From Acidobacteriia bacterium AH_259_A11_L15 (lineage in GTDB: Bacteria; Acidobacteriota; Terriglobia; Acidiferrales; 2-02-FULL-67-57), in contig JALLOH010000002.1 in the NCBI GenBank assembly GCA_027717655.1, positions 3,474 to 67,473 of the forward strand: a stretch of DNA of 64,000 nt, written 5' to 3'. The notes below the pieces were generated by a model. The model had not been told where the DNA came from. It was given only the letters and a program-made list of their open reading frames with translations, and did no database searches. Positions 6,901-60,615 of the stretch are shown in pieces; position 1 is the stretch's first letter, and every line of letters starts with the position of its first letter. A program made the position numbers and the translations under genes.

Positions 6901-6941
6901 CCTCTCATCATACCGGAGGACAAAGGAAAAGCCGAACGCCC

Positions 6942-21163: not shown

Positions 21164-21916
21164 CTATCGCGTACGCACGAGTGCCTTTTCAATTCGTTTC
21201 GCGATGCGTCGAGAAGCAGCCCGCTGCAGGTCGAGCCGGTATAGGGCGAAGTAATTATTAGCATGTTGAGCTGCTTCAGCCGACCTTTCGAGCTTGATGA
21301 GACACATCGTAAGCCGGTCAAGCGCTTCGATCTCGCCATTTCTTCCAAGTTCGTCAGCCTCCTCACCGAGTAGCTGGCCGACTAGCCCCTTTTCGTAGTT
21401 GATGAATGCGTATCCCGGAATTGCTTCAATGGCCTGGACATACATCTTTACCGCCTGCACCAGGTTGCGCTTTTCGATGGCCTTAGCTTGCTGGATCAGA
21501 GCGCGATTTGCATTCTGTAGCCTGTGGTAGTGCTCGAGCGCCTGAAAGTCGGTCGCCCGGCCCATGTTGACCCAGTTTACGAGGTCGTCCGAGCATTGAG
21601 CGATCCACGCTGCCTCAACCTCCTCCGCTTTCCCTGTCGATAGGTTGTCTTGGAGGATACGGACCTGATACTTGCCCCCCAGATGTTTCTCGACGAACCG
21701 ACGCCAAAGCGGGTGGCGATCCGCGGACCATGCCCGCCTTCTTTCTCCTTTCCCGACGTAGAAGATCTTCCCGGCGCTATCCATATGCGCATACACATAA
21801 CTCCTGCGCGGATTCTCCTGATTCGCATGCGCGGCGGGCTTGAGGGGCTTCGGGCCGTCGCCACCGTGCAGGGATAGTTCGACCCCTAGATTTGTCCCCC
21901 TAGCCGTGAACTTCAT
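21164..21916 (-). CDS. GIY-YIG nuclease-domain protein with C-terminal helical (TPR-like) repeats, islet 1
   Basis: YVYAHMDSAGKIFYVGKGERRRAW...AEEVEAAWI matches the GIY-x9-YIG..R..E layout. The C-terminal half is alpha-helical repeats (LVQAVKMYVQAIEAIPGYAFINYEKG...). Confidence 0.7.
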   Translation of the reverse strand: MKFTARGTNLGVELSLHGGDGPKPLKPAAHANQENPRRSYVYAHMDSAGKIFYVGKGERRRAWSADRHPLWRRFVEKHLGGKYQVRILQDNLSTGKAEEVEAAWIAQCSDDLVNWVNMGRATDFQALEHYHRLQNANRALIQQAKAIEKRNLVQAVKMYVQAIEAIPGYAFINYEKGLVGQLLGEEADELGRNGEIEALDRLTMCLIKLERSAEAAQHANNYFALYRLDLQRAASRRIAKRIEKALVRTR

Positions 21917-29236: not shown

Positions 29237-30034
29237 ACGGGGGTTGAACTCACCATCCTGGGCAGCGGTTCGGCGGGCAACCTGGCGTTTCTCTCCACCG
29301 AGCGCACCCGCCTGCTGATCGACGCCGGCCTCTCCAAGCGGGAAACCCTGAAGCGGATGGAAACCGCCGGACTGCGCCCCAACGGGCTGGCCGGCATCGT
29401 CGTCTCCCACGAGCACAACGACCACGCGGCTCACCTGGGGGCGCTGGCCGAGGAGTTCAACGCCCCGGTCTACTTGGCCGAGGGCACCCGCGAGGCCCTG
29501 CCGGAGGCGCGAGTGCTGCCGCGGGTGGAACGCTTCCGGCCCGGGCACCGCTTCGTGGTGGGCGACATCGAGATGGTTCCCTTCGCCGTCCCCCACGACG
29601 CCAACGAGCCCGTGGCCTTCCGCGTCGAAACCCAGGGCGTCAAACTCGTCCTGGCGGTCGACCTGGGCTTCCTGACCGGCCTGGTCAAGCAGCAGTTGCG
29701 CGGCTGCGACTGCTTGATCCTGGAGGCCAACCACGACACCGAGATGCTCCGCCGCGGCCCCTATCCCTGGTTCATCAAGCAGCGCGTAATGAGCCGCCTG
29801 GGACACCTCTCGAACGAAGCCGTGGCCGACTTCCTGGAGTGCGACTTCGACGGCTCGGCTGCCTATCTGGTGCTCGCCCACCTGAGCCAGAACAACAACT
29901 CGCCCGAGATTGCCCGCCTGGCCGCCGAGCAGGCCCTCGAGCGTCGCCGGGCGCGCTTCCCGCTCTCGCTGGTGCGCGACCCCGAGATTCGCGTGGCCCC
30001 TCGCCGCGCCCCTCTGGCTCCGCTGCGCTTCTAA
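29237..30034 (+). CDS. MBL-fold metallo-hydrolase (YycJ/WalJ-like)
   Basis: ELTILGSGSAGN...LLIDAGLS...VVSHEHNDHAAHLG...EANHD...GHLSN. The start is unresolved: there is no ATG/GTG/TTG near the conserved N-terminus. ACG 29237 lies 7 nt after GAAGGGG. The ORF-track start 29006 and TTG 29120 lie upstream of the promoter-like element. Confidence 0.75.
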   Translation, partial: TGVELTILGSGSAGNLAFLSTERTRLLIDAGLSKRETLKRMETAGLRPNGLAGIVVSHEHNDHAAHLGALAEEFNAPVYLAEGTREALPEARVLPRVERFRPGHRFVVGDIEMVPFAVPHDANEPVAFRVETQGVKLVLAVDLGFLTGLVKQQLRGCDCLILEANHDTEMLRRGPYPWFIKQRVMSRLGHLSNEAVADFLECDFDGSAAYLVLAHLSQNNNSPEIARLAAEQALERRRARFPLSLVRDPEIRVAPRRAPLAPLRF

Positions 30035-30051
30035 GGAACAAACTTGTGGTC

Positions 30052-31434
30052 ATGCGTAAGCGGCATTCGTACTTGTTCCTCCCGCCGCTAGCGGTATTTT
30101 GTCTTTTTTCGTTCGTGGCGGCGGAGGAACCGTGGCAGCAGTGGGACTGGGGTGCCGCGAGTTCCGTCCAAACCCTCTATCATCCAGCCTGGCGAATCGA
30201 GGTCCAAGAAAACAAAGTCCGCTTCTTGGCTCACCAGTTCACTTACACGTACGAATCCCGAACTGACCATTGGGTTGTGACCGCTGAAGAGAACGAATGG
30301 GAACAACGTAGGACGTGGGAACAGGAACCGGGCAAGCCAGTAAGGTACATTCAGCGCATGCTAACCACAAGAGGTTCTTTGGAAGCTGAAACTCAAGGGT
30401 CGGACCGGGAACAAGGGCAACTGGAGTTGCGCTGGAGCGGCTCTTCGCAGCCATTTGCCCGGCTGCGCCTGTGGACACGCGAACAGCTGGGTCAAATTTG
30501 GTTCGAACGTGAGCAAAGGCAGCACCCGCCGCCCGCATCCCCCGAGACCCTAGCGGAAAAGATCTGTATGTCTTGGGCCGAAGTGGCCGACTGGGATGAA
30601 GATGAACAAAAGATCTGGCTTGCGATCCGTTTCTATGAAGGAGAAGGTTGCGCTGGGATAGGAACCATTCTGGAGATCGACAAGGACTCCAACGACGTGC
30701 GCGTGCATCAACCTGCGCCTTTGAATTTGGTCTCGATTGCCCACATCCTCGCCATAGAATCAGAGTTATGGTTGGCCACAGAGCGATTCGGCGAAGGTGG
30801 GACAGGCCCCGGAATCGGGCTCGTACGATACAACCCAAGAACAGGCAACCTCCAATCAGTACCCAAGATGACTTCTCAGATTATGGATATGGCGCATGGT
30901 GACGGACTCCTTTGGGTTGCCACCGAAGAAGGCGTCGCCGCTTGCGACCTCGAGAATGAGACGTGGCGCAAGTGGCGATTCATTCCTCGTGTGGCTGTTG
31001 CCGAGCTGGTGCCGGTTGCGAATCGCCCGGGCAGCGAACCGAGAGGGCAGCTTCCCGCTGGGGACTATGAAGTCCGGTGGGTGGGGGAAGGTTTCCTAGA
31101 GCTTCTGACGCCGGACTGCGCCGAGGGCTACGTAGACTCATCCAGTCTCGAACGCCTCGCAAAGCGTGGTTTTTGCACCAGTCCGAGTCTGTTGGCTTCG
31201 AGCCCAAAATGGGGCAACCCGCCAAGCCTCTTGGTTTTCTCATCTCCGCGGACGGACCCCAAAGAGCAAAAACCCTCAGCCTGGTTCTTGAGAGTGCCGG
31301 CCGTCCCGAAGGGAAAGGAAAATGGCAGTTGGCAGGCCGTGGAAGTGTGCGCGGGCTGGGTGGAACTCCAGCCTGACCGAGTCTACATAAGTATCGAGGA
31401 GGAAGCGACCGGGGAGGGCAGTAATCATACCTAG
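30052..31434 (+). CDS. hypothetical secreted protein (460 aa), AT-richer gene
   Basis: ATG 30052, signal peptide LFLPPLAVFCLFSFVAAEE. Middle region has beta-propeller-like LWxAT repeats (ELWLATERFG, GLLWVATEEGVAACD). Confidence 0.7.
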   Translation: MRKRHSYLFLPPLAVFCLFSFVAAEEPWQQWDWGAASSVQTLYHPAWRIEVQENKVRFLAHQFTYTYESRTDHWVVTAEENEWEQRRTWEQEPGKPVRYIQRMLTTRGSLEAETQGSDREQGQLELRWSGSSQPFARLRLWTREQLGQIWFEREQRQHPPPASPETLAEKICMSWAEVADWDEDEQKIWLAIRFYEGEGCAGIGTILEIDKDSNDVRVHQPAPLNLVSIAHILAIESELWLATERFGEGGTGPGIGLVRYNPRTGNLQSVPKMTSQIMDMAHGDGLLWVATEEGVAACDLENETWRKWRFIPRVAVAELVPVANRPGSEPRGQLPAGDYEVRWVGEGFLELLTPDCAEGYVDSSSLERLAKRGFCTSPSLLASSPKWGNPPSLLVFSSPRTDPKEQKPSAWFLRVPAVPKGKENGSWQAVEVCAGWVELQPDRVYISIEEEATGEGSNHT

Positions 31435-31469
31435 CTTGCATCGGGACGCTCAAAAGAGTAAAAAACCCC

Positions 31470-32732
31470 GTGTCCTCCCGCTGTTTACATACGCTGGGAG
31501 TGGTAGCGCTGCTGGCGGCGGGCCTGCTTTCCCCCGCCACGGCAGCGCGGCCCGCGGGCCCGCAAGCCATGCTGCGGGCGGTGACGGCGCCGGCGATTTC
31601 CGCCGAAAGCGAAGAAAAACTCCACGCGGCGTTCGAGCACCTCTACAACCTGGAGTTCACCCAGGCCCGCACCCTGTTCGAACAAATCGCCCAGGCCGAG
31701 CCGGCCAGCGCCACCGTGCGGGCCTTCTGGGCCTCGGCCATCCTCTACGAAATGCTCGCCCAACAGGGCAGTCTGCAGGCGCAACTCTTCGTCAGCAAAG
31801 ATTTCCTGAAACACGAGCGCCTGCCGCCCGACCCGAAACTCGACCGCGAGTTCCATCGCCTCACCGAGGAAGCCGTACGCCTCGCCCGCCGGCGGCTGGA
31901 GGCCGATGAGCAGGACGTGGATGGCCTGTTCGCGCTCGGACTTGCCTACGGCAACCAGGCCAACTACCTGGTCGGAGTCAATGAGGAGTACTTCCGCGGG
32001 CTGCGCCTGGGGGAAAAGGCAGCCGACTACCACGAGAAACTCCGGAAGGTCCGTCCGGAGATCAACGACAGCAGCGTGGTCCTCGGCATCCACGACTACA
32101 TCCTGGGCAACCTGCGCCTCACCCAGCGCTTGCTGCTCTTCTTCCTCGGCGCCCACGGCGACCGCGAGCGCGGCCTCGAGTACCTGCGGGAAGCCGCCGC
32201 CCACGGGGAGTTCCTGCGCCCGTACGCCCGCACGCTGCTGGTGGTGACGAACATGCGGGAAGGAAACCTGGAGCGCGCCGCCAACTTGGCCGCCGGGCTG
32301 CGGGCCAAGTATCCGCGCAACCCCATCTTTGCCCTGGAATTGGCCAGGCTCTACCGTCGGCTCGAACAGCACGCCGAAGCCACCCGGGTTTGCCAGTCCC
32401 TGCTGGCGGAGCTCATCGCCCACCCGCACAATCCGCGGATCGTCGGGCTGGAAGACGCCCTGCTGGAGCTGGGCCTAATCGAGGCCGCTCAGGGACAATG
32501 GGAGCGGGCCTTGCAATCCCTGGCGCAGATAGGCAACCTCCCCGAGGTGGATAGACACACTTGGGCTCGGGCCCTGCTGGAGCGCGGCAAGATCTACGAC
32601 CTGTTGGGCGAACGGCAAAAAGCTCTGGCTGAATACGACAAGGTGATCGACCTGGCCGTCGACATCCAGTTCACGCGCCCGGCGCTCAACTACCGCGAGC
32701 GCTCCTACCAGGTCGAAAAAGAGAAAGAGTAA
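31470..32732 (+). CDS. tetratricopeptide-repeat secreted protein
   Basis: Signal peptide followed by repeated TPR-like helical pairs through the C-terminus (ALLERGKIYDLLGERQKALAEYDKVI). Confidence 0.8.
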   Translation: MSSRCLHTLGVVALLAAGLLSPATAARPAGPQAMLRAVTAPAISAESEEKLHAAFEHLYNLEFTQARTLFEQIAQAEPASATVRAFWASAILYEMLAQQGSLQAQLFVSKDFLKHERLPPDPKLDREFHRLTEEAVRLARRRLEADEQDVDGLFALGLAYGNQANYLVGVNEEYFRGLRLGEKAADYHEKLRKVRPEINDSSVVLGIHDYILGNLRLTQRLLLFFLGAHGDRERGLEYLREAAAHGEFLRPYARTLLVVTNMREGNLERAANLAAGLRAKYPRNPIFALELARLYRRLEQHAEATRVCQSLLAELIAHPHNPRIVGLEDALLELGLIEAAQGQWERALQSLAQIGNLPEVDRHTWARALLERGKIYDLLGERQKALAEYDKVIDLAVDIQFTRPALNYRERSYQVEKEKE

Positions 32733-44585: not shown

Positions 44586-46310
44586 GTGACGAGAAAACAA
44601 CCGGGGGCAGTGCTGCTGGGTTTTCTGCTTGCGATCCTGCTGCCGGGAGCGGCGCGCGAAAAGGAGCCGGTGGATGAATATGCCGGCCGGCGGGACCGCT
44701 TGCTCGAACGAGTGAACGCTCCGGTGGTCCTCTTCGGCCATGGCGGCCGGGAGAACACCGCGCCCGACGCCACCTTCTGGCAGGAGCCGAACTTCTACTA
44801 TCTGACCGGCCACGACGAGCCCGGGGCGGCGTTGCTGCTCGTCCCCCAGACCGAGGAAGCAAAAGCCGCCGGGCTGCCCGGAGAAATCCTCTTTTTGCCG
44901 CCGCGGGACAAGGCCCGCGAGCGCTGGGCAGGCGTCAAGCTCGGCCCCGCTGACCCTGCCGCGCCCGCGCAGACGGGTTTCGCGGTCGTCAAGCCCGCGG
45001 GCGCGCTGCGGGGCGAGTTGGAGCAGGTGCTAGAGATTTTCCCCGCCGTCTATACGCTGTTTCCCTTGCCCACGCCCGAGAACGGCCCGGCGGGGGAGCT
45101 CAGCCACGCCGGGCGCTGGTACGACTGGCTGCGGGCGGTGGCTCCGCTGACCGAGTTCCGCGACGTCCGCAGCGTTCTGGGCGGGATGCGCCAGGTGAAG
45201 TCCGAGAGCGAGCTCACCCTGCTGCGCTTCTCCATCGAGCAGTCCATGGAGGCGCACCGGGCGGCAATGGGGGCGCTGCGTCCGGGAATGTATGAGTATG
45301 AACTCGCCGCCCTGATGGAGCGCAGCTTCGCGGGAGCGGGCTGCGAGCGCCCCGGCTACCCGCCCATTGTGGGCTCCGGATTCAACTCCACCGTGCTCCA
45401 CTATGACGCCAACCGTCGGAAAATGCCGGCCGGCGACCTGGTGGTGATCGACGTGGCCGGCGAGTGCAACGGCTACACGGCCGACATCACCCGCACGCTG
45501 CCGGTGAGTGGGAAGTTCACCGAGCGCCAGCGGGAAATCTACCAGATTGTGCTGGCGGCGCAGAACGCCGCCCTCGAAGCCGTGCGGCCCGGCATGACCC
45601 TTGCCCGCACCGGCGAGAACTCGCTCTACCGCATCGCCTACGACTACATCAACTCCCACGGCACCGACCAGGACGGCGAGCCCCTGGGGCCGTACTTCAT
45701 CCACGGGCTCGGCCACCACATCGGCCTGGAGGTGCACGACGCCGGGCCGCGCGGCCGGCCGCTGAAGCCGGGGATGATCTTCACCATCGAGCCCGGCATC
45801 TACCTCCCGGAGGAAAGCCTGGGGGTGCGCATCGAGGACATCGTGCTGGTGACCGAGGACGGCTACGAGCTGCTGACGGCCGCCTTACCGCGGACGGTGG
45901 AGAAAATCGAAGAGCTGATGAGCTGCAACCAGCCAAATCTCGCCAACCCTGTCATCGAGATCACACGCGCGGAGCAGGAAATAGTTCTCGGCCAGGAGAT
46001 CGTCCGCTATTGGTTAACCGTTTCTAACTGGTCCGAGTTTCCGGACGAGCTCTTTGAGCCTTCCCCCGACCTTCCTCCCTGCGGGGGGAACAACAATGCC
46101 GCCCGAACCTGGGTAGACATCTACGCGGAAGATGGAAAGCGTGTCTATCGATTTTGTGCCCTTGACTCCGCCGCAGGCCTGACACGCCTTTGGTTTGCTG
46201 TGCAGAAGGACGAGCTTCCCCCGGAACGCGTATACATAACCTTGAGGGATCGCCGCTGCCAGAAGACCTATAAGTCGAACCTGGCGAGCACAGCAGTCGA
46301 TATCGAATAA
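44586..46310 (+). CDS. Xaa-Pro aminopeptidase (M24B) with signal peptide and an extra about 130-aa C-terminal domain
   Basis: Creatinase-N-like and M24 core (VIDVAGECNGYTADITRT, HGLGHHIGLEVHD, FTIEPGIY, RIEDIV). The core normally ends near ...EKIEELM, but here 130 more codons follow. Confidence 0.85.
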   Translation: MTRKQPGAVLLGFLLAILLPGAAREKEPVDEYAGRRDRLLERVNAPVVLFGHGGRENTAPDATFWQEPNFYYLTGHDEPGAALLLVPQTEEAKAAGLPGEILFLPPRDKARERWAGVKLGPADPAAPAQTGFAVVKPAGALRGELEQVLEIFPAVYTLFPLPTPENGPAGELSHAGRWYDWLRAVAPLTEFRDVRSVLGGMRQVKSESELTLLRFSIEQSMEAHRAAMGALRPGMYEYELAALMERSFAGAGCERPGYPPIVGSGFNSTVLHYDANRRKMPAGDLVVIDVAGECNGYTADITRTLPVSGKFTERQREIYQIVLAAQNAALEAVRPGMTLARTGENSLYRIAYDYINSHGTDQDGEPLGPYFIHGLGHHIGLEVHDAGPRGRPLKPGMIFTIEPGIYLPEESLGVRIEDIVLVTEDGYELLTAALPRTVEKIEELMSCNQPNLANPVIEITRAEQEIVLGQEIVRYWLTVSNWSEFPDELFEPSPDLPPCGGNNNAARTWVDIYAEDGKRVYRFCALDSAAGLTRLWFAVQKDELPPERVYITLRDRRCQKTYKSNLASTAVDIE

Positions 46311-46607
46311 ACCCGGTTCTTCCGTCACGTTTGCGGGGTAGCCTTTGACCGCAATCAAACGTTGGCTCCCAGCGGCGTCCTTCGGCTTCACTTCCCTCGA
46401 CGCGGCTCGGGACAGGCAGGACGAGGGGGCCGCAGGGTTGAACAGAGAAGAAAGAAACCGCACGGGGCGCCTGTTCGACAGCTACCATCCCAGCCAGCAA
46501 GACACCCAGACGGGCCGGCTCACCCCGGCGATGATCAAGCGGGTCCTGCGGGACGTGGGAAAATACCTGGACGATTAGGAAACCTGTGTCGGGGAAAAAA
46601 GCAGTGG

Positions 46608-47522
46608 TCAGCCCATCCGCTTGAGAATCAGGAGAACCAGGTAAGCATCCTCGCCCCCCTGCGAACTGCGCAGCTCCAACGCAATCACGAACCGGTCCGT
46701 AGCCGAAGGCGTAAACACGACAATCGGATAGGAATCCGGCTCCACGTCTTCGCACTTCGCGCAGGCCAGGCCCCCGGAAGGGGTCCGCACGAACAGGTTG
46801 CTGTCCAGAACGTCTTTGTCGCCCCCGGCCAGGAAAACATAACTGATGTCGCCCGACAGCGAAATTTCCTGGCTCATGGTATCGCCCTGTTCATACAGCC
46901 CCCCGTACACGGCGAAGCCGTTGCGAGTGAAATCCAGCTCTTCGATCTCGGCACTGATCAAACGCATATTTTTGAGCGCGTCTTCCAGCGCCTGATCCAT
47001 CCAATCGGCGGGCGAGGCCTGGGCGACGGCGCCCGTCGCCGGAATCCGTTTGAGGATCAACAAGACCAGGTAGGAATCCCGCCCTTCCTGGGACTGGAAG
47101 AGCTGTAGGTCAATCACGAAGCGGCCAGTCTCCTGAGGGCTGAAGAAAATAATCGGAGTCGAGTCCTCCTGCGTATCCTTGCACTTCGGACAGGCCAGGT
47201 CTCCAGCCAGAGTTCGCACAAAGATGTCGGTGTCGATGACGCTGGGATCGCCCCCGCCCAAGAACAGGTAGTCCACCCCGCCGGACAGGGTGACTTCCTG
47301 GGTCATGTTGTCGCCCTGTTCAAACACTCCCCCGTACAGGGCGAAGCCGTTCCGGGAGAAATCCACCCTCTCCTCCGGAGCCACGGTCTCGTAGACCTGC
47401 ATTTTCTTGAGTGCGTTCTCCAGCGCCGCGTCCATCCAATCCGCGGGCGTGCCTTGGGCATGAGCAGCGGGCGGGGACAGAATAAGGACGCCCAGGCCAA
47501 ACCAAAGAACCATTTTTTTCAT
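46608..47522 (-). CDS. hypothetical secreted protein made of two tandem about 145-aa homologous domains
   Basis: ATG 47522, signal peptide MKKMVLWFGLGVLILSPPAAHA. Both halves align (PADWMD.ALE.ALK.M...DF.RNGFA.YGG..EQGD.M.QE..LSG...Y.FL.GGD......FVRT..G.LAC.KC.D......PI..F.P....RFVI.L.L..SQ.G.D.YLVLLILKR). Confidence 0.7.
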   Translation of the reverse strand: MKKMVLWFGLGVLILSPPAAHAQGTPADWMDAALENALKKMQVYETVAPEERVDFSRNGFALYGGVFEQGDNMTQEVTLSGGVDYLFLGGGDPSVIDTDIFVRTLAGDLACPKCKDTQEDSTPIIFFSPQETGRFVIDLQLFQSQEGRDSYLVLLILKRIPATGAVAQASPADWMDQALEDALKNMRLISAEIEELDFTRNGFAVYGGLYEQGDTMSQEISLSGDISYVFLAGGDKDVLDSNLFVRTPSGGLACAKCEDVEPDSYPIVVFTPSATDRFVIALELRSSQGGEDAYLVLLILKRMG

Positions 47523-47650
47523 GTCGCTACTCCTCGCCCGGCGGTGCGAAGCCGTGGCCGTCGGCCGCTTCGGGGGCATGCGAGCGGCCTTGCCTCGGCC
47601 GCCAAAACACTATCAGCCCCATGAATAATAACCCACCGCCGATTGTTGTG

Positions 47651-47679
47651 ATGCTAATTCCCAAGATACGGGTTGTCAA
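47651..47679 (-). promoter_or_regulatory. sigma70-type promoter (TTGACA-17-TAGCAT) for the 46608..47522 gene
   Basis: On the minus strand, TTGACA is at 47679-47674, then a 17-nt spacer, then TAGCAT at 47656-47651. Confidence 0.4.
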
Positions 47680-47917
47680 GGGAAAGGTCAGGCCGGTACG
47701 GCCTTGCCGGGTAAGCCCGCTCCCGGCGCTGGGTAGTGGGTCAGTTTGGTTGTAGCGGCGGTCTATGACCGCCGAAGCTGCGTTTTTAACGGGCACCGGC
47801 GCTCCCAGAGCGCCGCTACAGCAACCCGTCCCACTACCGAATGGCTTTCAATGGGAATCTAATTCAATCTGACCCACTACCCGGCGCTGGCCGCACCCCA
47901 GAAGTGTGGGGCCGGTG

Positions 47918-47926
47918 TGCTATACT
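47918..47926 (+). promoter_or_regulatory. extended -10 element TGCTATACT upstream of efp
   Basis: TGnTATACT lies 37 nt upstream of the efp ATG. The same 9-mer recurs upstream of infC (57678) and a 1-mismatch variant occurs at 63967. Confidence 0.3.
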
Positions 47927-47962
47927 GGGTTGTCAAGAACACTTCATCGAGGCTGGCAAGCG

Positions 47963-48529
47963 ATGGCCACAGTCCAAGCCACCAAGCTCCGTCCCAGGAT
48001 GGTGATTCAATTGGACGGGGACCTCTACTCCATTTTCAGCCTCAACCACCGCACGCCCGGCAACAAGCGCGGGTTTGTGCGGGCGAAGCTGCGCGACCTG
48101 AACAGCGGAGCCATGATCGAGCACCGGTTCAGCTCGGAAGATTTCGTCGAGCGCGCCTACCTGGACGAAAAAGAGGTAGAATTCCTGTACCGGGAAGGCG
48201 ACGTTTTCACCTTTATGGATACCAGCACCTACGAGCAGTACCCCTTGAACCGGGAGGCTCTGGGGAGCACCGTCGGCTACCTCACCCCCAACGGCCGGTT
48301 GCAGGTGACGTTCTTCCAGGGCAAGCCGCTGGGCATCGAGCTGCCCGCTTCGGTGGAGTTGAAGGTGGTGGAGACCGAGCCGGGCATCAAGGGCGCCTCG
48401 GCCACCAACGTCACCAAGCCGGCCAAGCTCGAGACCGGCCTCACCGTGCAGGTTCCGCCCTTCGTGAATGAGGGCGAAGTGATCCGTGTGGATACGGCCG
48501 AAGGCACTTACCTGGAACGGGTGCGCTAA
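47963..48529 (+). CDS. efp: elongation factor P
   Basis: Three-domain EF-P pattern (LRPRMVIQLDGDLY..., GFVRAKLRDL, TEPGIKGASATNVTKPAKLETG). ATG at 47963. Confidence 0.93.
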   Translation: MATVQATKLRPRMVIQLDGDLYSIFSLNHRTPGNKRGFVRAKLRDLNSGAMIEHRFSSEDFVERAYLDEKEVEFLYREGDVFTFMDTSTYEQYPLNREALGSTVGYLTPNGRLQVTFFQGKPLGIELPASVELKVVETEPGIKGASATNVTKPAKLETGLTVQVPPFVNEGEVIRVDTAEGTYLERVR

Positions 48530-51378: not shown

Positions 51379-53088
51379 ATGAAGGGTGTGGAACGGGCAC
51401 TGGTGAGCGTGTATGACAAGCGCGGCGTGGTGGAACTGGCGCGGGCGCTGGCGGCGCTGGAGATCGAAATTCTTTCCACCGGCGGCACCGCGCGCCGGCT
51501 GCGCGAGAACGGCGTGCGGTTGCGCGAAGTGAGCGAAGTCACCGGCTTCCCCGAAATGCTGGGCGGGCGGGTCAAGACGCTGCACCCGGCCATCCACGCC
51601 GGCATCCTGGCCCGGCGGGATGACCCGCAGCAGTTGGAGCAACTAAGACAGCAGGGCTTGGGGCCGATTGACCTGGTAGTGGTCAATCTCTATCCGTTCG
51701 CGCAGACGGCGGCGCGTCCCGAAGGTTCGGGAGGAGCCACGCCCGCCGAGCTGGTCGAAGAAATCGACATCGGCGGGCCGACGATGGTCCGGGCGGCGGC
51801 CAAGAACTTTCAGGGGGTGGGCGTAGTGGTCTCGCCCGATGACTACGAACGGGTGATCGAAGAGCTGAAAGCACAGGGCGGCCTGTCGCTGGGCACGCGT
51901 TTGGAACTGGCGCGCAAGGCCTTCGCCACCACCGCCGCGTATGACGCGACGATTGCCAGCACCCTCGAAGAACTGCGCGTGGAGGGCAGCACGCTTACTC
52001 GCCAGCCGCCGACCGGCTTTCCCGCCTTCCTTCGGCTCACAGGAAAGAAAGTGACGGACCTGCGCTATGGGGAGAATCCGCATCAGCGAGCGGTCTTGTA
52101 CCGGCTCGCTGATGCGCCCGCCGGAGTCCCGCGTGGCGGGACGGAGGCGGGTGGCTTCGGCATCGCTGGCGCCCGCCAGCTTCAGGGCAAGGAACTCAGC
52201 TACAACAACCTGCTCGACCTGGACGCCGCCTGGGACTTGGCCTCGGAGTTCCAAGAACCCTTCGGGGCGAGCCCTCAGGGTGAACCGGTGGTTGCCATCA
52301 TCAAGCACACCAACCCCTGCGGGGTGGCCGTGGGCCGTCCCGAAGCTTCGGGACAGGCCGAAGCCTACGAGAAGGCGCTGGCGTGCGACCCGGTTTCCGC
52401 CTTCGGCTCGGTCATGGGGCTGAACCAGCCGCTCACCGCCGCGACGGCCGAGGCGATGAGCAAGCTATTCGTCGAGGCCATCGCCGCGCCGGGCTACGAA
52501 CCCAAGGCGCGGGAGATTCTGGCCAAGAAGAAGAACCTCCGGTTGATGGAAGTGACCCCGCAAAGCGGGGTCATCCTGAGCGAGCCCGAAGGGCGAGTCG
52601 AAGGGTCTGCTTTTTTTCGCTATCGCCTCCGCTCCATTTCCGGCGGGCTGCTGGTGCAGGAAAAAGACTGCGGGCAATTGAACCCGAAGGAATTGCGCAC
52701 GGTCAGCAAACGCGCGCCCACGACCGAGGAGCTTCAGTCGCTGCTCTTCGCCTGGGTGGTGGCCAAGCACGTGAAGTCGAACGCCATCGTCTACGCCCGC
52801 GACGGGCAGACGGTCGGTATCGGCGCCGGGCAGATGAGCCGGGTGGATTCCGTCAAGCTCGGTGCTATGAAAGCCCGCGAGCTGGGCCACGCCGGGCGGC
52901 TGAAAGGCTCGGTGCTGGCCTCCGACGCTTTCTTCCCTTTCCCCGACGGCGTCGAAGAGGCGGCCAAGGCGGGCGTCACGGCGGTGATTCAACCCGGCGG
53001 CTCCAAGCGCGACCCGGAAGTCATCGCCGCCGCCGACCGCCTCGGCCTGACGATGGTGTTTACCGGCATCCGCCATTTCAGACATTGA
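51379..53088 (+). CDS. purH: bifunctional AICAR transformylase / IMP cyclohydrolase
   Basis: [68 protein letters not shown]. Contains an in-frame repeat-derived insertion at 52568-52612. Confidence 0.95.
52568..52612 (+). repeat. family-A repeat copy inserted in frame inside purH
   Basis: GGTCATCCTGAGCGAGCCCGAAGGGCGAGTCGAAGGGTCTGC, translated as [15 protein letters not shown]. Confidence 0.7.
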
Positions 53089-53450
53089 TGGGAACCACGG
53101 ATGTAGGAGTTACTGCCAAAATTAGTTATCATGATGGAGTAAACCAGTCAGTAGTCTCGGTGAATGGCATGCTGATCAACCTGTACTTGATCCTGGCAAT
53201 CGGAAGTTGGTTTTTCATGTTGTTCTTCGGAGAGAAGCTAGAAGGTCAAAAGGGAAAGAAGACGCAAGGCGTAGCCGGAATTTATCTCTTTTGGGGATAT
53301 ATTGCTTTCGTTTTCTGGTCGGCGGTCGTGCTCGGCATCTGGGAGCGAGAGTTGCTCATTGTGGCTGCTATCGGCAGCATCCCTGGACTCTTGGGTACCT
53401 ATCTGCTCCTCGGCACTGTGGTCGACGCTCTAAGAGGGAACAGAAATTAA
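53088..53450 (+). CDS. hypothetical 3-TM membrane protein (120 aa), islet 2
   Basis: The ATG overlaps the purH stop (TGATG). Three hydrophobic helices. AT-richer than the backbone. An internal ATG near 53169 is an alternative start. Confidence 0.55.
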   Translation: MGTTDVGVTAKISYHDGVNQSVVSVNGMLINLYLILAIGSWFFMLFFGEKLEGQKGKKTQGVAGIYLFWGYIAFVFWSAVVLGIWERELLIVAAIGSIPGLLGTYLLLGTVVDALRGNRN

Positions 53451-53483
53451 CTGCGCAACAATCGTAATGGGACACCAGCAAGC

Positions 53484-54266
53484 GTGGTTTCGCTTGCAGT
53501 CGCAATGACCAGCAGAACGATAGGGCGAGACGCACTCAAGCAAGCGATGATCCAAGCCCTGGAGTCATATCCTCTGTGCAAGTTTTTCTTGTCGCAGTAT
53601 GTCCAGAAAATGACCGATATAGATATGCAGCGAGACGAGGCATTCCATGTATCTGTCAAGCGGATTCTGTTGATCGACACCCACCTGATACGTGAGTTTG
53701 AAGCACTTATTTCTTCTTCCCTGCAAGCCTTGGGTTTGTCGAAGGAAGAGCTTAAGAAATCTTCGGAGTTCAACTTTGAGTGCTATAACCCTACAAACCT
53801 GGAAAGTTTCTTCGGTGTACTGCGCGCCGCGATCTTCCTACACGAAAAGGGGTATACGGATTTGAAGCTCCTCAAGCGGGCGTCCTGCGCTGACATTCTT
53901 TGTCGCTTCCATGGAAGATGGGTATGTCTTGAGGTGAAAACACTGACTTACGACCGTAGAGGGGGTAGAGGTTTATGGCTAGGGGATCAGGTAGGCGACA
54001 AACTGAAAGACATTCTCCCTTCCGCTCGAAGGCAGCTTTCAAAAGCAAGGGTGGACTATGCTTGCCCGGAAACCATCCTTGCCGTTGTAGTCAACTGGCT
54101 TGAACAATCGGCCGTACTCCAACAAGAAGACTATCAGGAGATTGTGGATAAACTGGAATCGGGTACGCCGAATCTCAACCAGCTAGAAGGACTAGATCAC
54201 ATTGTTTTTATCACTTACTTCGGTCAAGCTTACCCCTTCTCTCGGACTCAACTGGCTTCCTCATAA
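53484..54266 (+). CDS. hypothetical protein with PD-(D/E)xK nuclease-like core, islet 2
   Basis: ...RASCADILCRFHGRWVCLEVKTL... fits D-x13-E-x-K. A sampled 60-nt line is about 43% G+C. ATG at 53505 is an alternative start. Confidence 0.6.
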   Translation: MVSLAVAMTSRTIGRDALKQAMIQALESYPLCKFFLSQYVQKMTDIDMQRDEAFHVSVKRILLIDTHLIREFEALISSSLQALGLSKEELKKSSEFNFECYNPTNLESFFGVLRAAIFLHEKGYTDLKLLKRASCADILCRFHGRWVCLEVKTLTYDRRGGRGLWLGDQVGDKLKDILPSARRQLSKARVDYACPETILAVVVNWLEQSAVLQQEDYQEIVDKLESGTPNLNQLEGLDHIVFITYFGQAYPFSRTQLASS

Positions 54267-54273
54267 CGATCTC

Positions 54274-54360
54274 TTAGAACCGCATCAGGTCGCGGCCGAC
54301 AACGATTTTCCCTCTGAAGTGCTGGCGGGCGCCCTTCGACCCTTCGAGCAAGCTCAGGGC
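54274..54360 (-). pseudogene. ghost 3' end of a diverged MBL-hydrolase homolog
   Basis: The minus strand reads ...LLEGSKGARQHFRGKIVVGRDLMRF* (stop 54274-54276), versus the intact neighbour's C-terminus ...ILERAQRHFKGRIIVGKDLMRF* (stop 54401-54403). DNA identity is only about half. Confidence 0.55.
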
Positions 54361-54400: not shown

Positions 54401-55405
54401 TCAAAACCGCATGAGATCTTTTCCCACGATTATCCTGCCCTTGAAATGCCTCTGCGCACGTTCGAGGATGGTTTGCTCGGCCTCGGGGTCGCCGGGGACG
54501 ACGTGGGTGAGCACCAGGAGCTTCACGCCCGCGGCTTGGGCCACCTGGCCGACTTCGGTGGCGCTGGTGTGGTAGGCCTTCAGGCGGGCGGCGACTTCGG
54601 GGCTGTCCACGCGGTCGAAGTGCTCGGGGAGGTAAACCTCGTGGATGAGGATGTCAGCGCCGCGGGCGTGCCGGATGAGGTTCTGGCTGGGGGCGGTGTC
54701 GCCGGAGATGACCACTGACCTAATGGGAAAAGCCGACGACGAAGCTGCCGCTTCGTCGCCGCTACCTGACCCCAGCAAATCAAAGCGGTAGCCGAAGGCC
54801 GGCTCCACCGGGCGGTGGTCGACAGCAAAGGCGGTGACGCGGACGTCCTCGTCTTCATACACCACGCCCTCTTCGACCGTGTGCACGTTGATGGTGGCGC
54901 CCGCCCCGGGGTGCCCTTCGGTGAGGTCGCGCCGGATGCGGATGTCCTCGGCGAAGTATTGCTCCAGCGCCGCGGCCATCTCCTCCGTGCCTACCGGCCC
55001 GTAGAGCTCCAGCGGCAGGTAGCGCCCGAAAATCCACGAGGTAGCGAACAGGTCAGGGAGGCCCGAAGTGTGGTCGGAGTGCAGGTGAGTGAGGAAGACG
55101 GCGCGCAGGCAGCGGCTGCCGGCGACGCCGCATGACTGCGGGAGGTCGAAGGCGGCCAGGCGCATCACCAGGCCGCGCCCCGCGTCCACGAGGAACACCT
55201 TCTCGCCCACCACGATGGCGGTTGACGCTCCCGCTCTTGCGGGATCGGGCCGCGGGTAGCCCGTCCCCAGCAGGATCACCTGCATCTCCTCCGCCAGTGC
55301 TTGCAACGATCCTCCTAGAAGCGGACCGAGGGCAAAGAGCAAACTAACCAGGAAGATTAGACTGCGCATGGTCGCGAGTTTGACATTGCGGACGGCGGGG
55401 GACAA
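54401..55405 (-). CDS. secreted MBL-fold metallo-hydrolase
   Basis: Signal peptide, LLGTGYPRPDP...FLVDAGRG...FLTHLHSDHTSGLPDL (HxHxDH). Confidence 0.85.
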   Translation of the reverse strand: MSPAVRNVKLATMRSLIFLVSLLFALGPLLGGSLQALAEEMQVILLGTGYPRPDPARAGASTAIVVGEKVFLVDAGRGLVMRLAAFDLPQSCGVAGSRCLRAVFLTHLHSDHTSGLPDLFATSWIFGRYLPLELYGPVGTEEMAAALEQYFAEDIRIRRDLTEGHPGAGATINVHTVEEGVVYEDEDVRVTAFAVDHRPVEPAFGYRFDLLGSGSGDEAAASSSAFPIRSVVISGDTAPSQNLIRHARGADILIHEVYLPEHFDRVDSPEVAARLKAYHTSATEVGQVAQAAGVKLLVLTHVVPGDPEAEQTILERAQRHFKGRIIVGKDLMRF

Positions 55406-59054: not shown

Positions 59055-59469
59055 CGGGCCCCCTCACCTTCGCCGCCGAGGCCGGCTTGCCCTGAGCTCA
59101 TCGAAGGGTGGCACCTGCCACCGGCTTTTCACCTGGATGCGTCAAGGGTCTCTTTTCGCTGCTTGCCCTGTCGTGTAAACTGCGGCACGAACTCCCCGTG
59201 GCAGGTGCCACGGGGCTCAGCGCAGTAGGTGAGTGTTTTGATAGGGCAGGGCTTCAGCCCTGCCGTTCGCGGCTGTTAAAGATTGGGCTTTAGCCCCTGA
59301 GGACACCCGGCTTTTCCGCAACGCGGCTCTCGTGTAAACTGCCTGCCTTGAACGAGAAGCTTGGGTAGGACAAGGCTTTATGCCTTGCCGCTCAACCGGC
59401 AGGGGATGAACCCCTGCCCTACCCAGCCCGATTGTCATCCTGAGCGAAGCGAAGGATCTCAACGCAGCC
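59055..59469. repeat. 415-bp rplT-pheS spacer made almost entirely of dispersed repeats (families E, D, A)
   Basis: REP pair at 59106-59124 and 59194-59223 (inverted), TCGTGTAAACTGC at 59171 and 59330, family D at 59241-59300 and 59364-59424, family A at 59432-59460. Confidence 0.75.
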
Positions 59470-60615
59470 ATGACCGACATCCTGCAAAAGCTTCCGTTCA
59501 AGATTACGCAGCTGGGGATTCAATCACCTGAAGAGGTTGAGAATATTTTTGCAGAACTGCGGGCTGCGTTCGATCGGGAACTTGGGGAGAAACATGACAT
59601 AGAAGGGCTTGAAGGAATTCGAATCCGTTGGCGGGGTCGGAAAGGTCTTGACCGGCTTCTTCGTGATAACTGGCTCAAGCCCGAGTCAAAGTTCAAACCC
59701 GCAGTGGGCAAGGCGTACAACGATTTCAAGGACTATGTGGAATCCTCTCTCGCGCTGCGTTTGCAACACCTAAGAGCTCAAGAAGAAAGTCGCGAGATGG
59801 CCGCAGAAGGAGTAGATCTCACTCTCCCCGGGCTGGCGGCTCGCCGCGGCGCCCGCCACTTGGTCACCCAGACCCTGGAAGAAATTTGCGACATCTTCGC
59901 CCGCATCGGCTTTTCGGTGGTGGAAGGCCCGGAGGTGGAAACCGATTACTACAACTTCGAGGCCCTCAACATCCCTCAGCACCATCCCGCCCGCGACACC
60001 ATGGACACGCTCTATCTGGATCTGCCCGCCCGCGCCCTGCCCGAGGAAATCCGCGGCCCGCGCTCCGACCCCAATCAGTTCCTCCTGCTGCGCACCCATA
60101 CCTCGCCCGTGCAAATCCGCACCATGGAGAAGCAGAAGCCGCCGGTGCGCGTGGTGGTGCCGGGCAAGGTGTACCGCCGCGACAATCCCGACGCCACCCA
60201 CTCCTTTATGTTCCACCAGGTCGAAGGCCTGGCTGTCGACCGCGACCTCACCTTCTGCGAGTTTAAGGGCGCGATGGAGTATTTCCTGCGGGAGTTCTTC
60301 GGGCCGGAGACCAAGACCCGCTTCGCGGCCAGCTATTTCCCTTTCACCGAGCCCTCGGCCGACCTGGCGGCTACCTGCGGCGTCTGCCAGGGGTCCGGCT
60401 GCTCGGTCTGCAAGCACACCGGCTGGATCGAACTCTTCGGCGCCGGCATGGTGGACCCGGCGGTCTACGGATTCGTGGACTACGAGCCGGGGGAGCTGTC
60501 GGGGTTCGCCTTCGGGATGGGGGTGGAGCGGTTCGCCATGATCAAGTACGGCGTGGACGACCTCCAGCTCTTCTTCCAGAACGATGTGAGGTTCTTACAG
60601 CAATTCCGCCGCTAG
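59470..60615 (+). CDS. pheS: phenylalanine--tRNA ligase alpha subunit
   Basis: Class II motifs (HPARDTMDT, LLRTHTSPVQIR, YRRD, FHQVEG, GAGMVDP...GFAFGMGVERF). Confidence 0.95.
   Translation: MTDILQKLPFKITQLGIQSPEEVENIFAELRAAFDRELGEKHDIEGLEGIRIRWRGRKGLDRLLRDNWLKPESKFKPAVGKAYNDFKDYVESSLALRLQHLRAQEESREMAAEGVDLTLPGLAARRGARHLVTQTLEEICDIFARIGFSVVEGPEVETDYYNFEALNIPQHHPARDTMDTLYLDLPARALPEEIRGPRSDPNQFLLLRTHTSPVQIRTMEKQKPPVRVVVPGKVYRRDNPDATHSFMFHQVEGLAVDRDLTFCEFKGAMEYFLREFFGPETKTRFAASYFPFTEPSADLAATCGVCQGSGCSVCKHTGWIELFGAGMVDPAVYGFVDYEPGELSGFAFGMGVERFAMIKYGVDDLQLFFQNDVRFLQQFRR

What the first reader, a model, noticed from the sequence alone, without database searches (positions are those of the whole stretch)
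53088..54266. AT-richer islet 2 after purH: 3-TM protein plus PD-(D/E)xK-like protein, the same logic as islet 1
Immediately after purH (TGATG overlap) come a 120-aa three-TM protein (53088..53450) and a 260-aa protein (53484..54266). The larger protein's core, ...CADILCRFHGRWVCLEVKTL..., fits the D-x(n)-E-x-K restriction-endonuclease-like motif. Hand counts of lines in this segment give about 43-55% G+C, against about 67% in the purH 3' end. So two separate low-GC islets in this window each pair a nuclease-fold protein with a small 3-TM protein of similar size (112 and 120 aa). That parallel is what makes me suspect a recurring two-component nuclease plus membrane-partner design rather than random hypothetical genes.
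Basis: partly seen in the sequence, partly recalled or inferred. Interest (0 to 1): 0.6.

Follow-up and report, generated by a model that had tools for sequence, protein, structure and literature searches.

The report
Transferred low-GC islet with nuclease-fold gene
A 1.2-kb low-GC insert after purH in an acidobacterial genome carries a small membrane-protein gene and a gene from a rare, unnamed family with a restriction-endonuclease-like fold; it reached this spot by recent horizontal transfer, but the proposed nuclease-plus-membrane-partner design does not recur elsewhere.

Summary
Both ORFs, the TGATG overlap with purH and the D-x12-ExK motif are present. The islet has 48.7% G+C against 64.3% for the window, the lowest value in the window (z = -5.5).

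An AlphaFold model (pLDDT 90) shows an N-terminal helical domain followed by an alpha-beta-beta-beta-alpha-beta core. D130 and E143-x-K145 sit on strands 2 and 3. Foldseek E-values are weak, but most hits are PD-(D/E)xK nucleases (CdiA-CT, XisH, Hjc, MGME1, Cas4). No Pfam, NCBIfam, PADLOC or PHROG model matches. The family is rare: 62 representatives among 1.84 billion proteins.

The two-component idea is not supported. The 3-TM gene occurs only here and in one sister MAG. Ten other homologues have no membrane-protein neighbour. They lie beside defence genes, toxin/immunity genes or mobile-element genes. The islet-1 proteins are unrelated, and its larger protein is GIY-YIG-like.

The islet is 96% identical to the sister genome's copy (dS 0.07), while flanking core genes have dS 0.6-1.2. 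Its right end carries a foreign-type fragment of the neighbouring MBL gene's 3' end. A third genome has the site empty. The islet is therefore a recently transferred cassette.

Most likely it encodes a stand-alone conflict or defence nuclease. This is a new member of a known kind and of modest interest.

The parts
51379..53088 (+). purH (AICARFT/IMPCHase), the core gene that bounds the islet on the left
   Evidence: ORF. The L001 orthologue carries Pfam MGS and AICARFT_IMPCHas. It is 75% aa identical to L001 with dS 1.16.
53106..54300 (.). Recently shared low-GC tract, the transferred cassette. It is 89-96% nt identical to the sister genome L001, whereas the flanking genes are 71-83% identical.
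   Evidence: Pairwise alignment, sliding identity, dS 0.07-0.23 against 0.6-1.2 in the flanks, G+C 0.49.
53088..53450 (+). Small membrane protein of 120 aa as the maximal ORF, with three hydrophobic segments. The start is uncertain: ATG 53088, GTG 53160 (NCBI's call) or ATG 53169. Conservation with the sister copy begins at 53106.
   Evidence: It is 84% identical to P0005 in L001. There are 16 synonymous and 21 non-synonymous differences, which is purifying selection at p = 0.0075. No family match in Pfam, NCBIfam or PADLOC; only a weak PHROG match at E 0.064.
53505..54266 (+). 253-aa two-domain protein: an N-terminal helical domain (residues about 8-86) plus a C-terminal PD-(D/E)xK-type core (residues about 96-246). 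The maximal ORF runs from GTG 53484 (260 aa).
   Evidence: AF2 model with pLDDT 90.0 and pTM 0.89; elements H96-114, E118-122, E131-135, E138-147, H159-185, E189-196. Domain model with pLDDT 90.7. Fold hits. The family has 62 representatives.
53892..53939 (+). Predicted catalytic motif: D130 (53892-53894) at the start of strand 2, and E143-V144-K145 (53931-53939) in strand 3. Accessory conserved residues are E100 in helix 1 and Q177 (54033-54035) in the following helix.
   Evidence: Invariant and nearly invariant columns. Secondary-structure positions. The D-to-E spacing is 13 residues.
54274..54340 (-). Pseudo-copy of the 3' end of an MBL-fold hydrolase gene. It encodes ...ARQHFRGKIVVGRDLMRF* and is attached to the right end of the islet.
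   Evidence: Alignment and translation. It is 58% identical to the window's own MBL 3' end, but 83% to L001's and 82% to L017's. It occurs once in the window. L001 holds a shorter, degraded copy at the same junction.
54401..55405 (-). MBL-fold hydrolase, the core gene convergent with purH that bounds the islet on the right
   Evidence: Pfam Lactamase_B_2 at 2e-17. It is 73% aa identical to the L001 orthologue with dS 1.02.

Best explanation
The segment is a small accessory cassette inserted between two convergent core genes, purH and an MBL-fold hydrolase. It reached, or was re-exchanged at, this locus by horizontal transfer long after the two host lineages that carry it diverged.

Shown: it is compositionally foreign. 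It is about 96% identical between two genomes whose flanking genes are saturated at synonymous sites. It is absent from the same junction in a third related genome. It drags along a roughly 60-nt fragment of a donor-type MBL gene 3' end.

Shown at the level of fold and motif: its larger gene encodes a member of a rare, unannotated two-domain family. The family has an N-terminal helical domain and a C-terminal minimal PD-(D/E)xK core, with E100, D130, E143-x-K145 and Q177 in the canonical places.

Inferred: the protein is a Mg2+-dependent endonuclease that works as a single-gene conflict or defence nuclease. The N-terminal domain would provide target recognition or autoinhibition, as in Shedu-like or type IV restriction-like enzymes. 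This inference rests on the family's homologues being scattered singly in variable regions next to defence genes, toxin/immunity genes and mobile-element genes.

The 3-TM protein is a real, selected gene that travels with this particular cassette. It is not a conserved partner of the nuclease family, and its role is unknown. No integrase or transposase lies in the islet. Insertion most likely used the host's recombination machinery on incoming DNA from a relative that already carried the islet beside its MBL gene.
For: Composition: G+C 0.487, z = -5.5; GC3 0.54-0.57 against 0.81-0.90 in the flanks.

Transfer: dS is 0.066 (nuclease gene) and 0.227 (3-TM gene), against 0.59-1.16 for selA, purH, MBL and thrS and 0.77 for the 199-aa ORF. 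An independent Logan assembly, L025, reproduces the L001 junctions. In L017 the site is empty: MBL, then about 530 nt of GC-rich repeats, then purH. The pseudo-MBL fragment is of donor type.

Fold: AF2 pLDDT is 90 for both models. Most of the structural neighbours are PD-(D/E)xK nucleases. These include CdiA-CT 4g6v_A (probability 1.0, TM 0.45/0.53), XisH 2inb (TM 0.46/0.57), Hjc, YaeQ, MGME1, Cas4, the R.BspD6I small subunit, RecU and LmuA. Viral hits are restriction endonucleases, resolvases and CdiA-like proteins. Two of 36 family members touch Pfam Hjc at E = 1e-3.

Conserved residues.

Contexts of homologues: ApeA/HEPN with an integrase; FRG/PDC-S15 at 3e-31; an Avs4-like 1721-aa protein and a 5'-3' exonuclease; directly after an SduA_C (Shedu) gene; between an IS110 transposase and a PIN gene, or after Rap1a; after an RHS-tip-like ORF and beside IS66.
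Against: No sequence model of any nuclease or defence family matches the window protein. Profile searches of PDB sequences are non-significant.

Foldseek E-values are weak (best 2.5e-3) and TM-scores are only 0.45-0.57. The fold class is supported, but no specific family is.

K145 is not conserved in the distant half of the family.

Between the two cassette copies the nuclease gene has 11 synonymous and 22 non-synonymous differences. This cannot be distinguished from neutral drift (p = 0.12).

The defence-island association rests on about ten contexts, several on very short contigs.

Only two genomes carry the cassette, so neither the direction nor the mechanism of transfer can be resolved.

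The duplicated MBL 3' end lies entirely on one side of the islet and is not explained by any simple insertion model.
Confidence: 0.5

Rival explanations
1. The 3-TM protein and the nuclease form an obligate two-component system. The membrane protein would anchor, regulate or act as effector for the nuclease, for example in a defence or abortive-infection module.
For: The two genes are co-oriented and 54 nt apart. They are transferred together and both are retained in the two genomes that hold the cassette. The 3-TM gene is under purifying selection.
Against: None of ten other homologues has a multi-TM neighbour. The 3-TM protein has no relatives outside the cassette among 5.8 billion proteins or in JGI contigs. 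dS differs threefold between the two genes (0.23 against 0.07), which hints at different histories. The islet-1 'parallel' involves unrelated proteins and a different nuclease fold. No PADLOC match.
Confidence: 0.15
2. A selfish, homing-like cassette. The PD-(D/E)xK protein cuts the empty purH-MBL intergenic site in genomes that lack it. Repair from an incoming occupied copy then installs the cassette, together with a piece of the donor's flank.
For: The cassette sits at the same locus in two genomes whose core genes are saturated at synonymous sites, yet it is about 96% identical between them. The site is empty in a third genome. A donor-type fragment of the flanking gene is attached to the cassette. 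Identity peaks in the nuclease gene and falls off to the left. The window's other islet also carries a homing-endonuclease-like gene.
Against: Only two occupied genomes are known. The purH 3' end shows no co-conversion: win-L001 identity equals win-L017 and L001-L017 identity. The left junctions differ between the two genomes. Homologues sit at many unrelated loci rather than at one target. Ordinary recombination of a flexible locus between relatives explains the data equally well.
Confidence: 0.12
3. A polymorphic-toxin-related gene. The protein would be a CdiA-CT/Tox-REase-like nuclease toxin, or alternatively an immunity protein. It would be an orphaned module of an inter-bacterial competition system.
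For: The best solved structural neighbour is the CdiA-CT tRNase toxin of B. pseudomallei. BFVD hits include CdiA C-terminal-domain proteins. Homologue P0008 directly follows, and overlaps, a 106-aa ORF with an RHS-core-end-like motif, DPxGL...NRYxxAYDNP (motif recognised by eye). P0014 lies downstream of a Rap1a immunity gene.
Against: The window protein has no delivery domain, no RHS, CdiA or T6SS genes nearby, and no signal peptide. The family is always a free-standing protein of about 240 aa with its own N-terminal helical domain. The toxin/immunity contexts are two of about ten.
Confidence: 0.1
4. A decaying remnant. The ORFs are leftovers of an old insertion with no current function.
For: dN/dS for the nuclease gene between the two copies is 0.59 and not significantly below 1. 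No promoter-like or terminator-like signals stand out. Gene callers disagree on both starts.
Against: Both ORFs are intact and full-length in both genomes. All motif residues are retained. The 3-TM gene shows purifying selection (p = 0.0075). The family keeps 23-54% identity across its aligned members, with conserved core residues.
Confidence: 0.1

Closest known systems
Minimal PD-(D/E)xK nucleases: archaeal Hjc resolvase (PF01870), XisH (PDB 2inb, 2okf) and the CdiA-CT toxin of B. pseudomallei 1026b (PDB 4g6v_A)
   Same: Same alpha-beta-beta-beta-alpha-beta core. An acidic residue opens strand 2 and ExK lies in strand 3. These are the best structural neighbours. The weak Pfam Hjc matches of two family members and the weak PDB profile matches to Hjc 1gef and XisH 2okf point the same way.
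   Different: There is no significant sequence relationship. This protein has an extra N-terminal helical domain of about 90 aa and extra C-terminal strands and helices. Its substrate (DNA junction, dsDNA or tRNA) is unknown.
[quoted passage not shown]
   Same: Same architecture logic: a variable N-terminal domain plus a C-terminal PD-(D/E)xK core in a single gene. Both occur in defence islands and near transposable elements (for Shedu; here). One homologue lies 32 nt downstream of an SduA_C gene.
   Different: The window protein and the other 35 aligned family members do not match SduA_C (PF14082) in Pfam or any PADLOC Shedu model. hhalign against the neighbouring SduA_C protein is non-significant. 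The protein is much smaller, and no defence phenotype is known.
Restriction gene cassettes as mobile units, including 'insertion with long target duplication' overlapping a flanking gene's 3' end (Furuta, Abe and Kobayashi 2010, PMC2853133)
   Same: A low-GC nuclease-gene insert sits between core genes, with no transposase or integrase. It is associated with a duplicate, longer than 30 bp, of the neighbouring gene's 3' end (paper text).
   Different: There is no methyltransferase. Both copies of the duplicated segment lie on the same side of the islet instead of flanking it. The pseudo-copy is of foreign (donor) type rather than a duplicate of the local sequence.
Free-standing homing endonuclease genes, for example phage Seg/Mob GIY-YIG and HNH genes and the PD-(D/E)xK enzyme I-Ssp6803I (from my own knowledge)
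   Same: A nuclease gene is inserted between conserved genes and is polymorphic for presence. It is far more similar between genomes than its flanks are, and donor flank is carried along.
   Different: It lies in a cellular chromosome, not a phage or intron. There is no evidence of site-specific cleavage and no co-conversion of purH. Homologues are found at many different loci.

Membership tests
PD-(D/E)xK phosphodiesterase superfamily | Core alpha-beta-beta-beta-alpha-beta fold | tested here: met
   AF2 models have pLDDT 90.0 and 90.7 with the expected order of elements. Foldseek neighbours in PDB and BFVD are mostly PD-(D/E)xK nucleases (the main exception is the acetyl-CoA carboxylase central domain), though with weak E-values of 2.5e-3 to 1e-1 and TM-scores of 0.45-0.57.
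PD-(D/E)xK phosphodiesterase superfamily | Acidic residue at the start of strand 2 and (D/E)xK in strand 3, conserved in the family | tested here: met
   D130, E143 and V144 are invariant or at least 90% conserved in the 30-36 aligned sequences. K145 is invariant in the 13-sequence near clade and variable in distant members.
PD-(D/E)xK phosphodiesterase superfamily | Metal-dependent phosphodiester cleavage | not testable with these tools
   Requires biochemistry.
Hjc Holliday-junction resolvase (Pfam PF01870) | Match to the family model above its gathering threshold | tested here: not met
   The window protein has no Pfam match at E <= 1 apart from two weak, unrelated ones (HVSL E 0.11, BrxB E 0.14). 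Two of 36 relatives reach only E = 1e-3. The PDB profile match to Hjc 1gef has E = 0.19.
Shedu (SduA_C, PF14082 / PADLOC Shedu) | Match to the SduA_C nuclease-domain model | tested here: not met
   No Pfam or PADLOC match. hhalign to a neighbouring SduA_C protein gives probability 0.2 and E 0.38.
Any catalogued anti-phage defence system (PADLOC-DB v2) | HMM match of either islet protein | tested here: not met
   The best matches are E 0.026 (Orf5) for the large protein and none for the 3-TM protein.
Restriction-modification / mobile RM cassette | Cognate methyltransferase adjacent to the nuclease | tested here: not met
   The islet holds only the two ORFs. Its neighbours are purH and an MBL hydrolase.
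Polymorphic toxin (CdiA-CT / RHS-CT) module | Nuclease domain fused to, or directly following, a delivery domain, with an adjacent immunity gene | tested here: not met
   The window protein is free-standing, and no CdiA, RHS or T6SS gene is nearby. Only one homologue follows an RHS-tip-like ORF.
Free-standing homing endonuclease | Presence/absence polymorphism at one site, with the element much younger than its flanks | tested here: met
   dS is 0.07-0.23 in the islet against 0.6-1.2 in the flanks. The site is empty in L017.
Free-standing homing endonuclease | Cleavage of the unoccupied target site and co-conversion of the flanks | tested here: inconclusive
   Cleavage is not testable here. 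purH shows no co-conversion. On the right, a donor-type MBL fragment is attached to the islet.
   The partner is present only in the window and in L001/L025, which hold the same cassette. It is absent from the neighbourhoods of ten other homologues. The 3-TM proteins of islets 1 and 2 are unrelated.

The most novel reading that the evidence does not exclude
The cassette is a chromosome-borne, self-propagating, homing-like element of Terriglobia. Its PD-(D/E)xK enzyme cuts the unoccupied purH-MBL spacer and is copied in from incoming DNA, carrying a 3-TM cargo gene and a piece of donor flank. Islet 1 holds a GIY-YIG homing-endonuclease-like gene. Together the two islets would point to free-standing homing nucleases as a general source of small low-GC islets between core genes in these genomes.
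Probability: 0.1. Interest if true: 0.65.

Novelty: new member of a known kind. Interest (0 to 1): 0.33.

Why it matters
The 253-aa protein defines a rare family that no database names. It has 62 representatives at 50% identity among 1.84 billion proteins. It has a confidently predicted restriction-endonuclease-like core and a new N-terminal domain, and it recurs beside Shedu, ApeA, FRG/PDC-S15, Avs-like, PIN and RHS/Rap1a genes. That makes it a reasonable, testable candidate for a new single-gene conflict or defence nuclease.

The locus is also a clean example of a tiny cassette, with no integrase, that was exchanged between diverged Acidobacteria lineages at an orthologous site. Its dS is 0.07 against about 1 in the flanks, and it retains a molecular fossil of the donor's flanking gene. 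This bears on how small accessory islets move in poorly studied soil and subsurface phyla.

It does not reveal a new system architecture, and the proposed nuclease-membrane pairing is not general.

Tried and rejected
- **Family libraries.** Pfam, NCBIfam, PADLOC and PHROGs scans of both islet-2 proteins and the three islet-1 proteins gave nothing significant.
- **PDB sequence profiles.** Searches with A1 and A3 gave only chance-level hits; Hjc at E 0.19 and XisH at E 0.65 were noted as weak leads.
- **Annotated collections.** tblastn of the 253-aa protein against plasmids and phages found no match.
- **Contig collections.** The 253-aa protein had no relatives in GTDB species-representative genomes, JGI metagenome contigs or IMG/VR. 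Neither did homologue P0011 in IMG/VR, nor the 3-TM protein in JGI contigs.
- **Alignment-based locus searches** failed because no stretch was conserved enough.
- **Profile search of the 5.8-billion-protein set** added only unnamed proteins.
- **Transposon or integrative-element model.** I looked for terminal inverted repeats or flanking direct repeats of the islet and found none. The only meaningful repeat is the MBL 3'-end duplicate, and both copies lie to the right of the islet. A simple transposon or att-flanked element model was therefore rejected.
- **Co-conversion of purH.** The higher identity of the purH 3' end is not co-conversion: all three genome pairs show the same identity there.
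- **A third occurrence.** L025 turned out to be the same organism as L001.
- **RNA and signal scans.** Rfam and the promoter/terminator scans of the islet found nothing.
- **Literature.** A search for the genome name found nothing.
Full report
**Source and observation**

Exact protein matches identify the window as Acidobacteriia bacterium AH_259_A11_L15 (class Terriglobia), with locus tags MYX77_00690 and MYX77_00695.

- purH ends with TGA at 53086-53088, and an ATG at 53088 opens a 120-aa ORF that runs to 53450.
- That ORF has three hydrophobic 19-mers.
- A second ORF runs from GTG 53484 to 54266 (260 aa). The sister genome's protein begins at the equivalent of ATG 53505, so 253 aa is the more likely product.
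- The segment 53089-54266 has 48.7% G+C against 64.3% for the window. It is the lowest 1178-nt stretch in the window (next lowest 55.7%, z = -5.5).
- GC3 is 0.54-0.57 in the islet genes against 0.81-0.90 in the neighbours.

**What the large protein is**

No model in Pfam, NCBIfam, PADLOC or PHROGs matches it. An exhaustive phmmer scan of 1.84 billion representatives found only 62 relatives at E <= 1e-3. None carries a name or a Pfam domain.

In the alignments, D130 is invariant among 30 sequences, and E143, V144, Q177 and L178 are at least 90% conserved. K145, E100 and the N197-W198 pair are invariant or nearly so in the near clade of 13 sequences.

AlphaFold2 with this alignment gives a confident model (pLDDT 90.0, pTM 0.89).
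- Residues about 8-86 form a helical domain.
- The core then follows: helix 96-114, strands 118-122, 131-135 and 138-147, a long helix 159-185, and strand 189-196.
- D130 opens strand 2 and E143-x-K145 lies in strand 3, which is the canonical PD-(D/E)xK layout.
- The domain-only model agrees (pLDDT 90.7).

Foldseek E-values are weak (best 2.5e-3) and TM-scores modest. Even so, most neighbours in the PDB are PD-(D/E)xK nucleases. They include CdiA-CT of B. pseudomallei (4g6v_A, probability 1.0, TM 0.45/0.53), XisH (2inb, TM 0.46/0.57; 2okf), Hjc, YaeQ, MGME1, Cas4 SSO0001, the small subunit of R.BspD6I, RecU, LmuA and the R2 restriction-like endonuclease. The main exception is the central domain of acetyl-CoA carboxylase, which I regard as irrelevant. 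BFVD returns restriction endonucleases, resolvases, Cas4 and CdiA-like proteins.

Two of 36 relatives touch Pfam Hjc at E = 1e-3. Profile searches of PDB sequences stay non-significant.

I conclude that the fold class and the catalytic signature are supported. Membership of any named family is not.

**The two-component idea**

The 3-TM protein has one relative among 5.8 billion proteins. This is P0005, 83% identical, in a Terriglobia MAG (GCA_046758105.1, locus L001). There it sits in the same position, between purH and the large protein's 92.5%-identical orthologue. A third contig, L025, is the same organism assembled independently. JGI contigs hold no relative.

I examined the contigs of ten other homologues: P0004, P0007, P0008, P0009, P0010, P0011, P0012, P0014, P0016 and P0027. 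A scan of every stop-to-stop frame within 1.5 kb found no ORF with two or more hydrophobic segments beside any of them. Some contigs are short on one side.

Within the window, the 3-TM proteins of islets 1 and 2 show no similarity, and neither do the two large proteins. Residues 26-119 of the islet-1 250-aa protein match a 'putative homing endonuclease' of Rhizobium phage RHph_Y1_10 (38.5% identity, E 6e-9). By eye the protein carries a GIY-YIG-type motif (YVY...FYVGKG...R...E...N), which belongs to a different nuclease superfamily.

The parallel between the islets is therefore superficial. Each holds some nuclease-like gene and some small hydrophobic protein.

**Where homologues live**

Neighbours of the homologues include:
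- a split ApeA/HEPN gene (PADLOC Cas13-ApeA 6e-25, PDC-S58), with a tyrosine integrase and an HTH_17 gene;
- an FRG-domain protein (PDC-S15, 3e-31) and LigD;
- a 5'-3' exonuclease, an HNH-like 357-aa protein and a 1721-aa protein with an Avs4-like stretch (5e-8);
- an SduA_C (Shedu) gene ending 32 nt upstream;
- an IS110 transposase and a PIN gene with its small upstream partner, or a Rap1a immunity gene;
- an overlapping 106-aa ORF with an RHS-core-end-like motif, plus an IS66 fragment.

This is the variable, conflict-gene-rich part of genomes. The association rests on about ten contexts and is suggestive, not statistical.

**History of the islet**

Comparing the window with L001 gives very different divergence for the flanks and for the islet.

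| Gene | aa identity | dS |
|---|---|---|
| selA, the 199-aa ORF, purH, MBL, thrS (flanks) | 61-83% | 0.59-1.16 |
| 3-TM gene | 84% | 0.227 |
| Nuclease gene | 92.5% | 0.066 |

Nucleotide identity in 100-nt windows is 0.94-0.99 across most of the nuclease gene (from 53579), peaking at 0.98-0.99 in 53779-53978. It falls to 0.87-0.91 across most of the 3-TM gene, and to 0.6-0.85 in the flanks. Strong codon bias in the GC-rich core genes would lower their dS rather than raise it, so the contrast is conservative.

In a third relative, a Candidatus Acidiferrales MAG (L017) whose MBL is 66% identical, the MBL gene and purH are separated only by about 530 nt of GC-rich repeat-laden spacer, with no islet.

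The shared tract runs from about 53106 to about 54300. At its right end, in both genomes, lies a copy of an MBL gene's 3' end.
- In the window, 54274-54340 reads on the minus strand as ...ARQHFRGKIVVGRDLMRF*.
- This copy is 83% identical to L001's real MBL end and 82% to L017's, but only 58% to the window's own, which lies about 125 nt further on.
- In L001 the pseudo-copy is shorter. It is separated from the real end by a roughly 190-nt element with terminal inverted repeats, flanked by 21-nt direct repeats.
- No third copy lies to the left of the islet.
- The purH 3' end is not co-converted, because all three genome pairs show the same identity there.
- The left junctions differ: the islet abuts the purH stop in the window, but is about 270 nt of repeats away from it in L001.

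The simplest reading is as follows. The cassette already lay beside an MBL orthologue in a donor lineage. It entered the window's lineage as a fragment made of the 3-TM gene, the nuclease gene and about 60 nt of donor MBL. No integrase or transposase is involved, so host recombination must have done the joining. The exact mechanism is unresolved.

**Selection**

Between the two copies the 3-TM gene has 16 synonymous and 21 non-synonymous differences, which indicates purifying selection (p = 0.0075). The nuclease gene has 11 and 22, which cannot be told from neutrality over this short time (p = 0.12). None of its 19 amino-acid changes touches E100, D130, E143, K145 or Q177.

**Mechanism I commit to**

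The large protein is a stand-alone Mg2+-dependent PD-(D/E)xK endonuclease. Its N-terminal helical domain recognises a target or restrains the catalytic core. [quoted passage not shown] It could equally work like type IV restriction enzymes (from my own knowledge).

It is not a Shedu family member: SduA_C models do not match, and hhalign to a neighbouring SduA_C protein is non-significant.

The steps stand as follows.
- Shown: fold, motif, rarity, foreign composition and recent transfer.
- Inferred: catalytic activity, the regulatory role of the N-terminal domain and a defence or conflict function.
- Unknown: the role of the 3-TM protein.

**Rivals**

The rivals are an obligate nuclease-membrane pair, a homing-like selfish cassette, a polymorphic-toxin-related module and a decaying remnant. 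Each is set out with its evidence in the Rival explanations section.

Mobile restriction-gene cassettes that insert with a long duplication overlapping a flanking gene's 3' end (PMC2853133) are the closest described parallel for the junction structure. Here, however, there is no methyltransferase and the two repeat copies do not flank the insert.

**Verdict**

The finding is a new, unnamed family within the well-known PD-(D/E)xK superfamily, carried on a recently transferred two-gene islet. Interest is modest. The transfer signature and the defence-island association make the family worth an experiment, but nothing here points to a new kind of system.

Noticed in passing
window 21164..21916 (-), islet 1: Residues 26-119 of the 250-aa protein match a 'putative homing endonuclease' of Rhizobium phage RHph_Y1_10 (38.5% identity, E 6e-9). 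By eye the protein has a GIY-YIG-like motif (YVYAHMD...GKIFYVGKG...R...E...N). No Pfam model matches it. All three islet-1 proteins are singletons at 90% clustering.
   Followed up: partly
L001 6842-7075 (sister genome, between the islet and MBL): A roughly 190-nt element has 27-nt terminal inverted repeats (6883-6909 / 7024-7050) and an internal palindrome. It is flanked by 21-nt direct repeats that duplicate the MBL 3' end (6842-6862 / 7055-7075). It looks like a MITE/REP-type insertion with an unusually long target duplication.
   Followed up: partly
window 22870, 51241, 55662, 55683 (-); also the L001 and L017 spacers: A palindromic GC-rich repeat, GACAGACATTCCTGTCTG, occurs four times in intergenic spots of the window, against 0.03 expected. 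It recurs in the purH-MBL spacers of relatives and is probably a REP-like element family.
   Followed up: partly
window 30001-31500, 46001-48000, 59301-59800, 8701-9000: Further stretches have G+C of 0.55-0.60, below the 0.64 background. They are milder than the two islets and were not examined.
   Followed up: no
L008 564-884 and L009 822-1142: A 106-aa ORF overlaps the start of homologue P0008. It begins with an RHS-core-end-like motif (DPTGL...NRYAHAYDNPLRFIDQSG) followed by a tail of about 70 aa. It looks like an orphan polymorphic-toxin tip, which would put the PD-(D/E)xK homologue in the position usually held by an immunity gene. No Pfam match.
   Followed up: partly
L026 1077-2499 and L027 1073-2495: Homologue P0016 starts 32 nt after a 221-aa protein with a Shedu SduA_C nuclease domain. 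This is a possible tandem of two PD-(D/E)xK genes.
   Followed up: partly
window 54401..55405 (-) and L001 7053-7982: The MBL-fold hydrolase next to the islet has a signal-peptide-like N-terminus. Its L001 orthologue is recorded with Pfam Anti-Pycsar_Apyc1 hits besides Lactamase_B, probably a generic MBL-fold resemblance.
   Followed up: no
window 53088..53450 versus L001 5588-6016: The two copies of the 3-TM gene use different upstream start codons. In the window the ATG overlaps the purH stop. In L001 an ATG lies about 200 nt past purH, inside repeat-derived sequence. Conservation begins only at codon 6-7 (VGVTAKISYHDG), so the true start is unclear; NCBI chose GTG 53160.
   Followed up: partly
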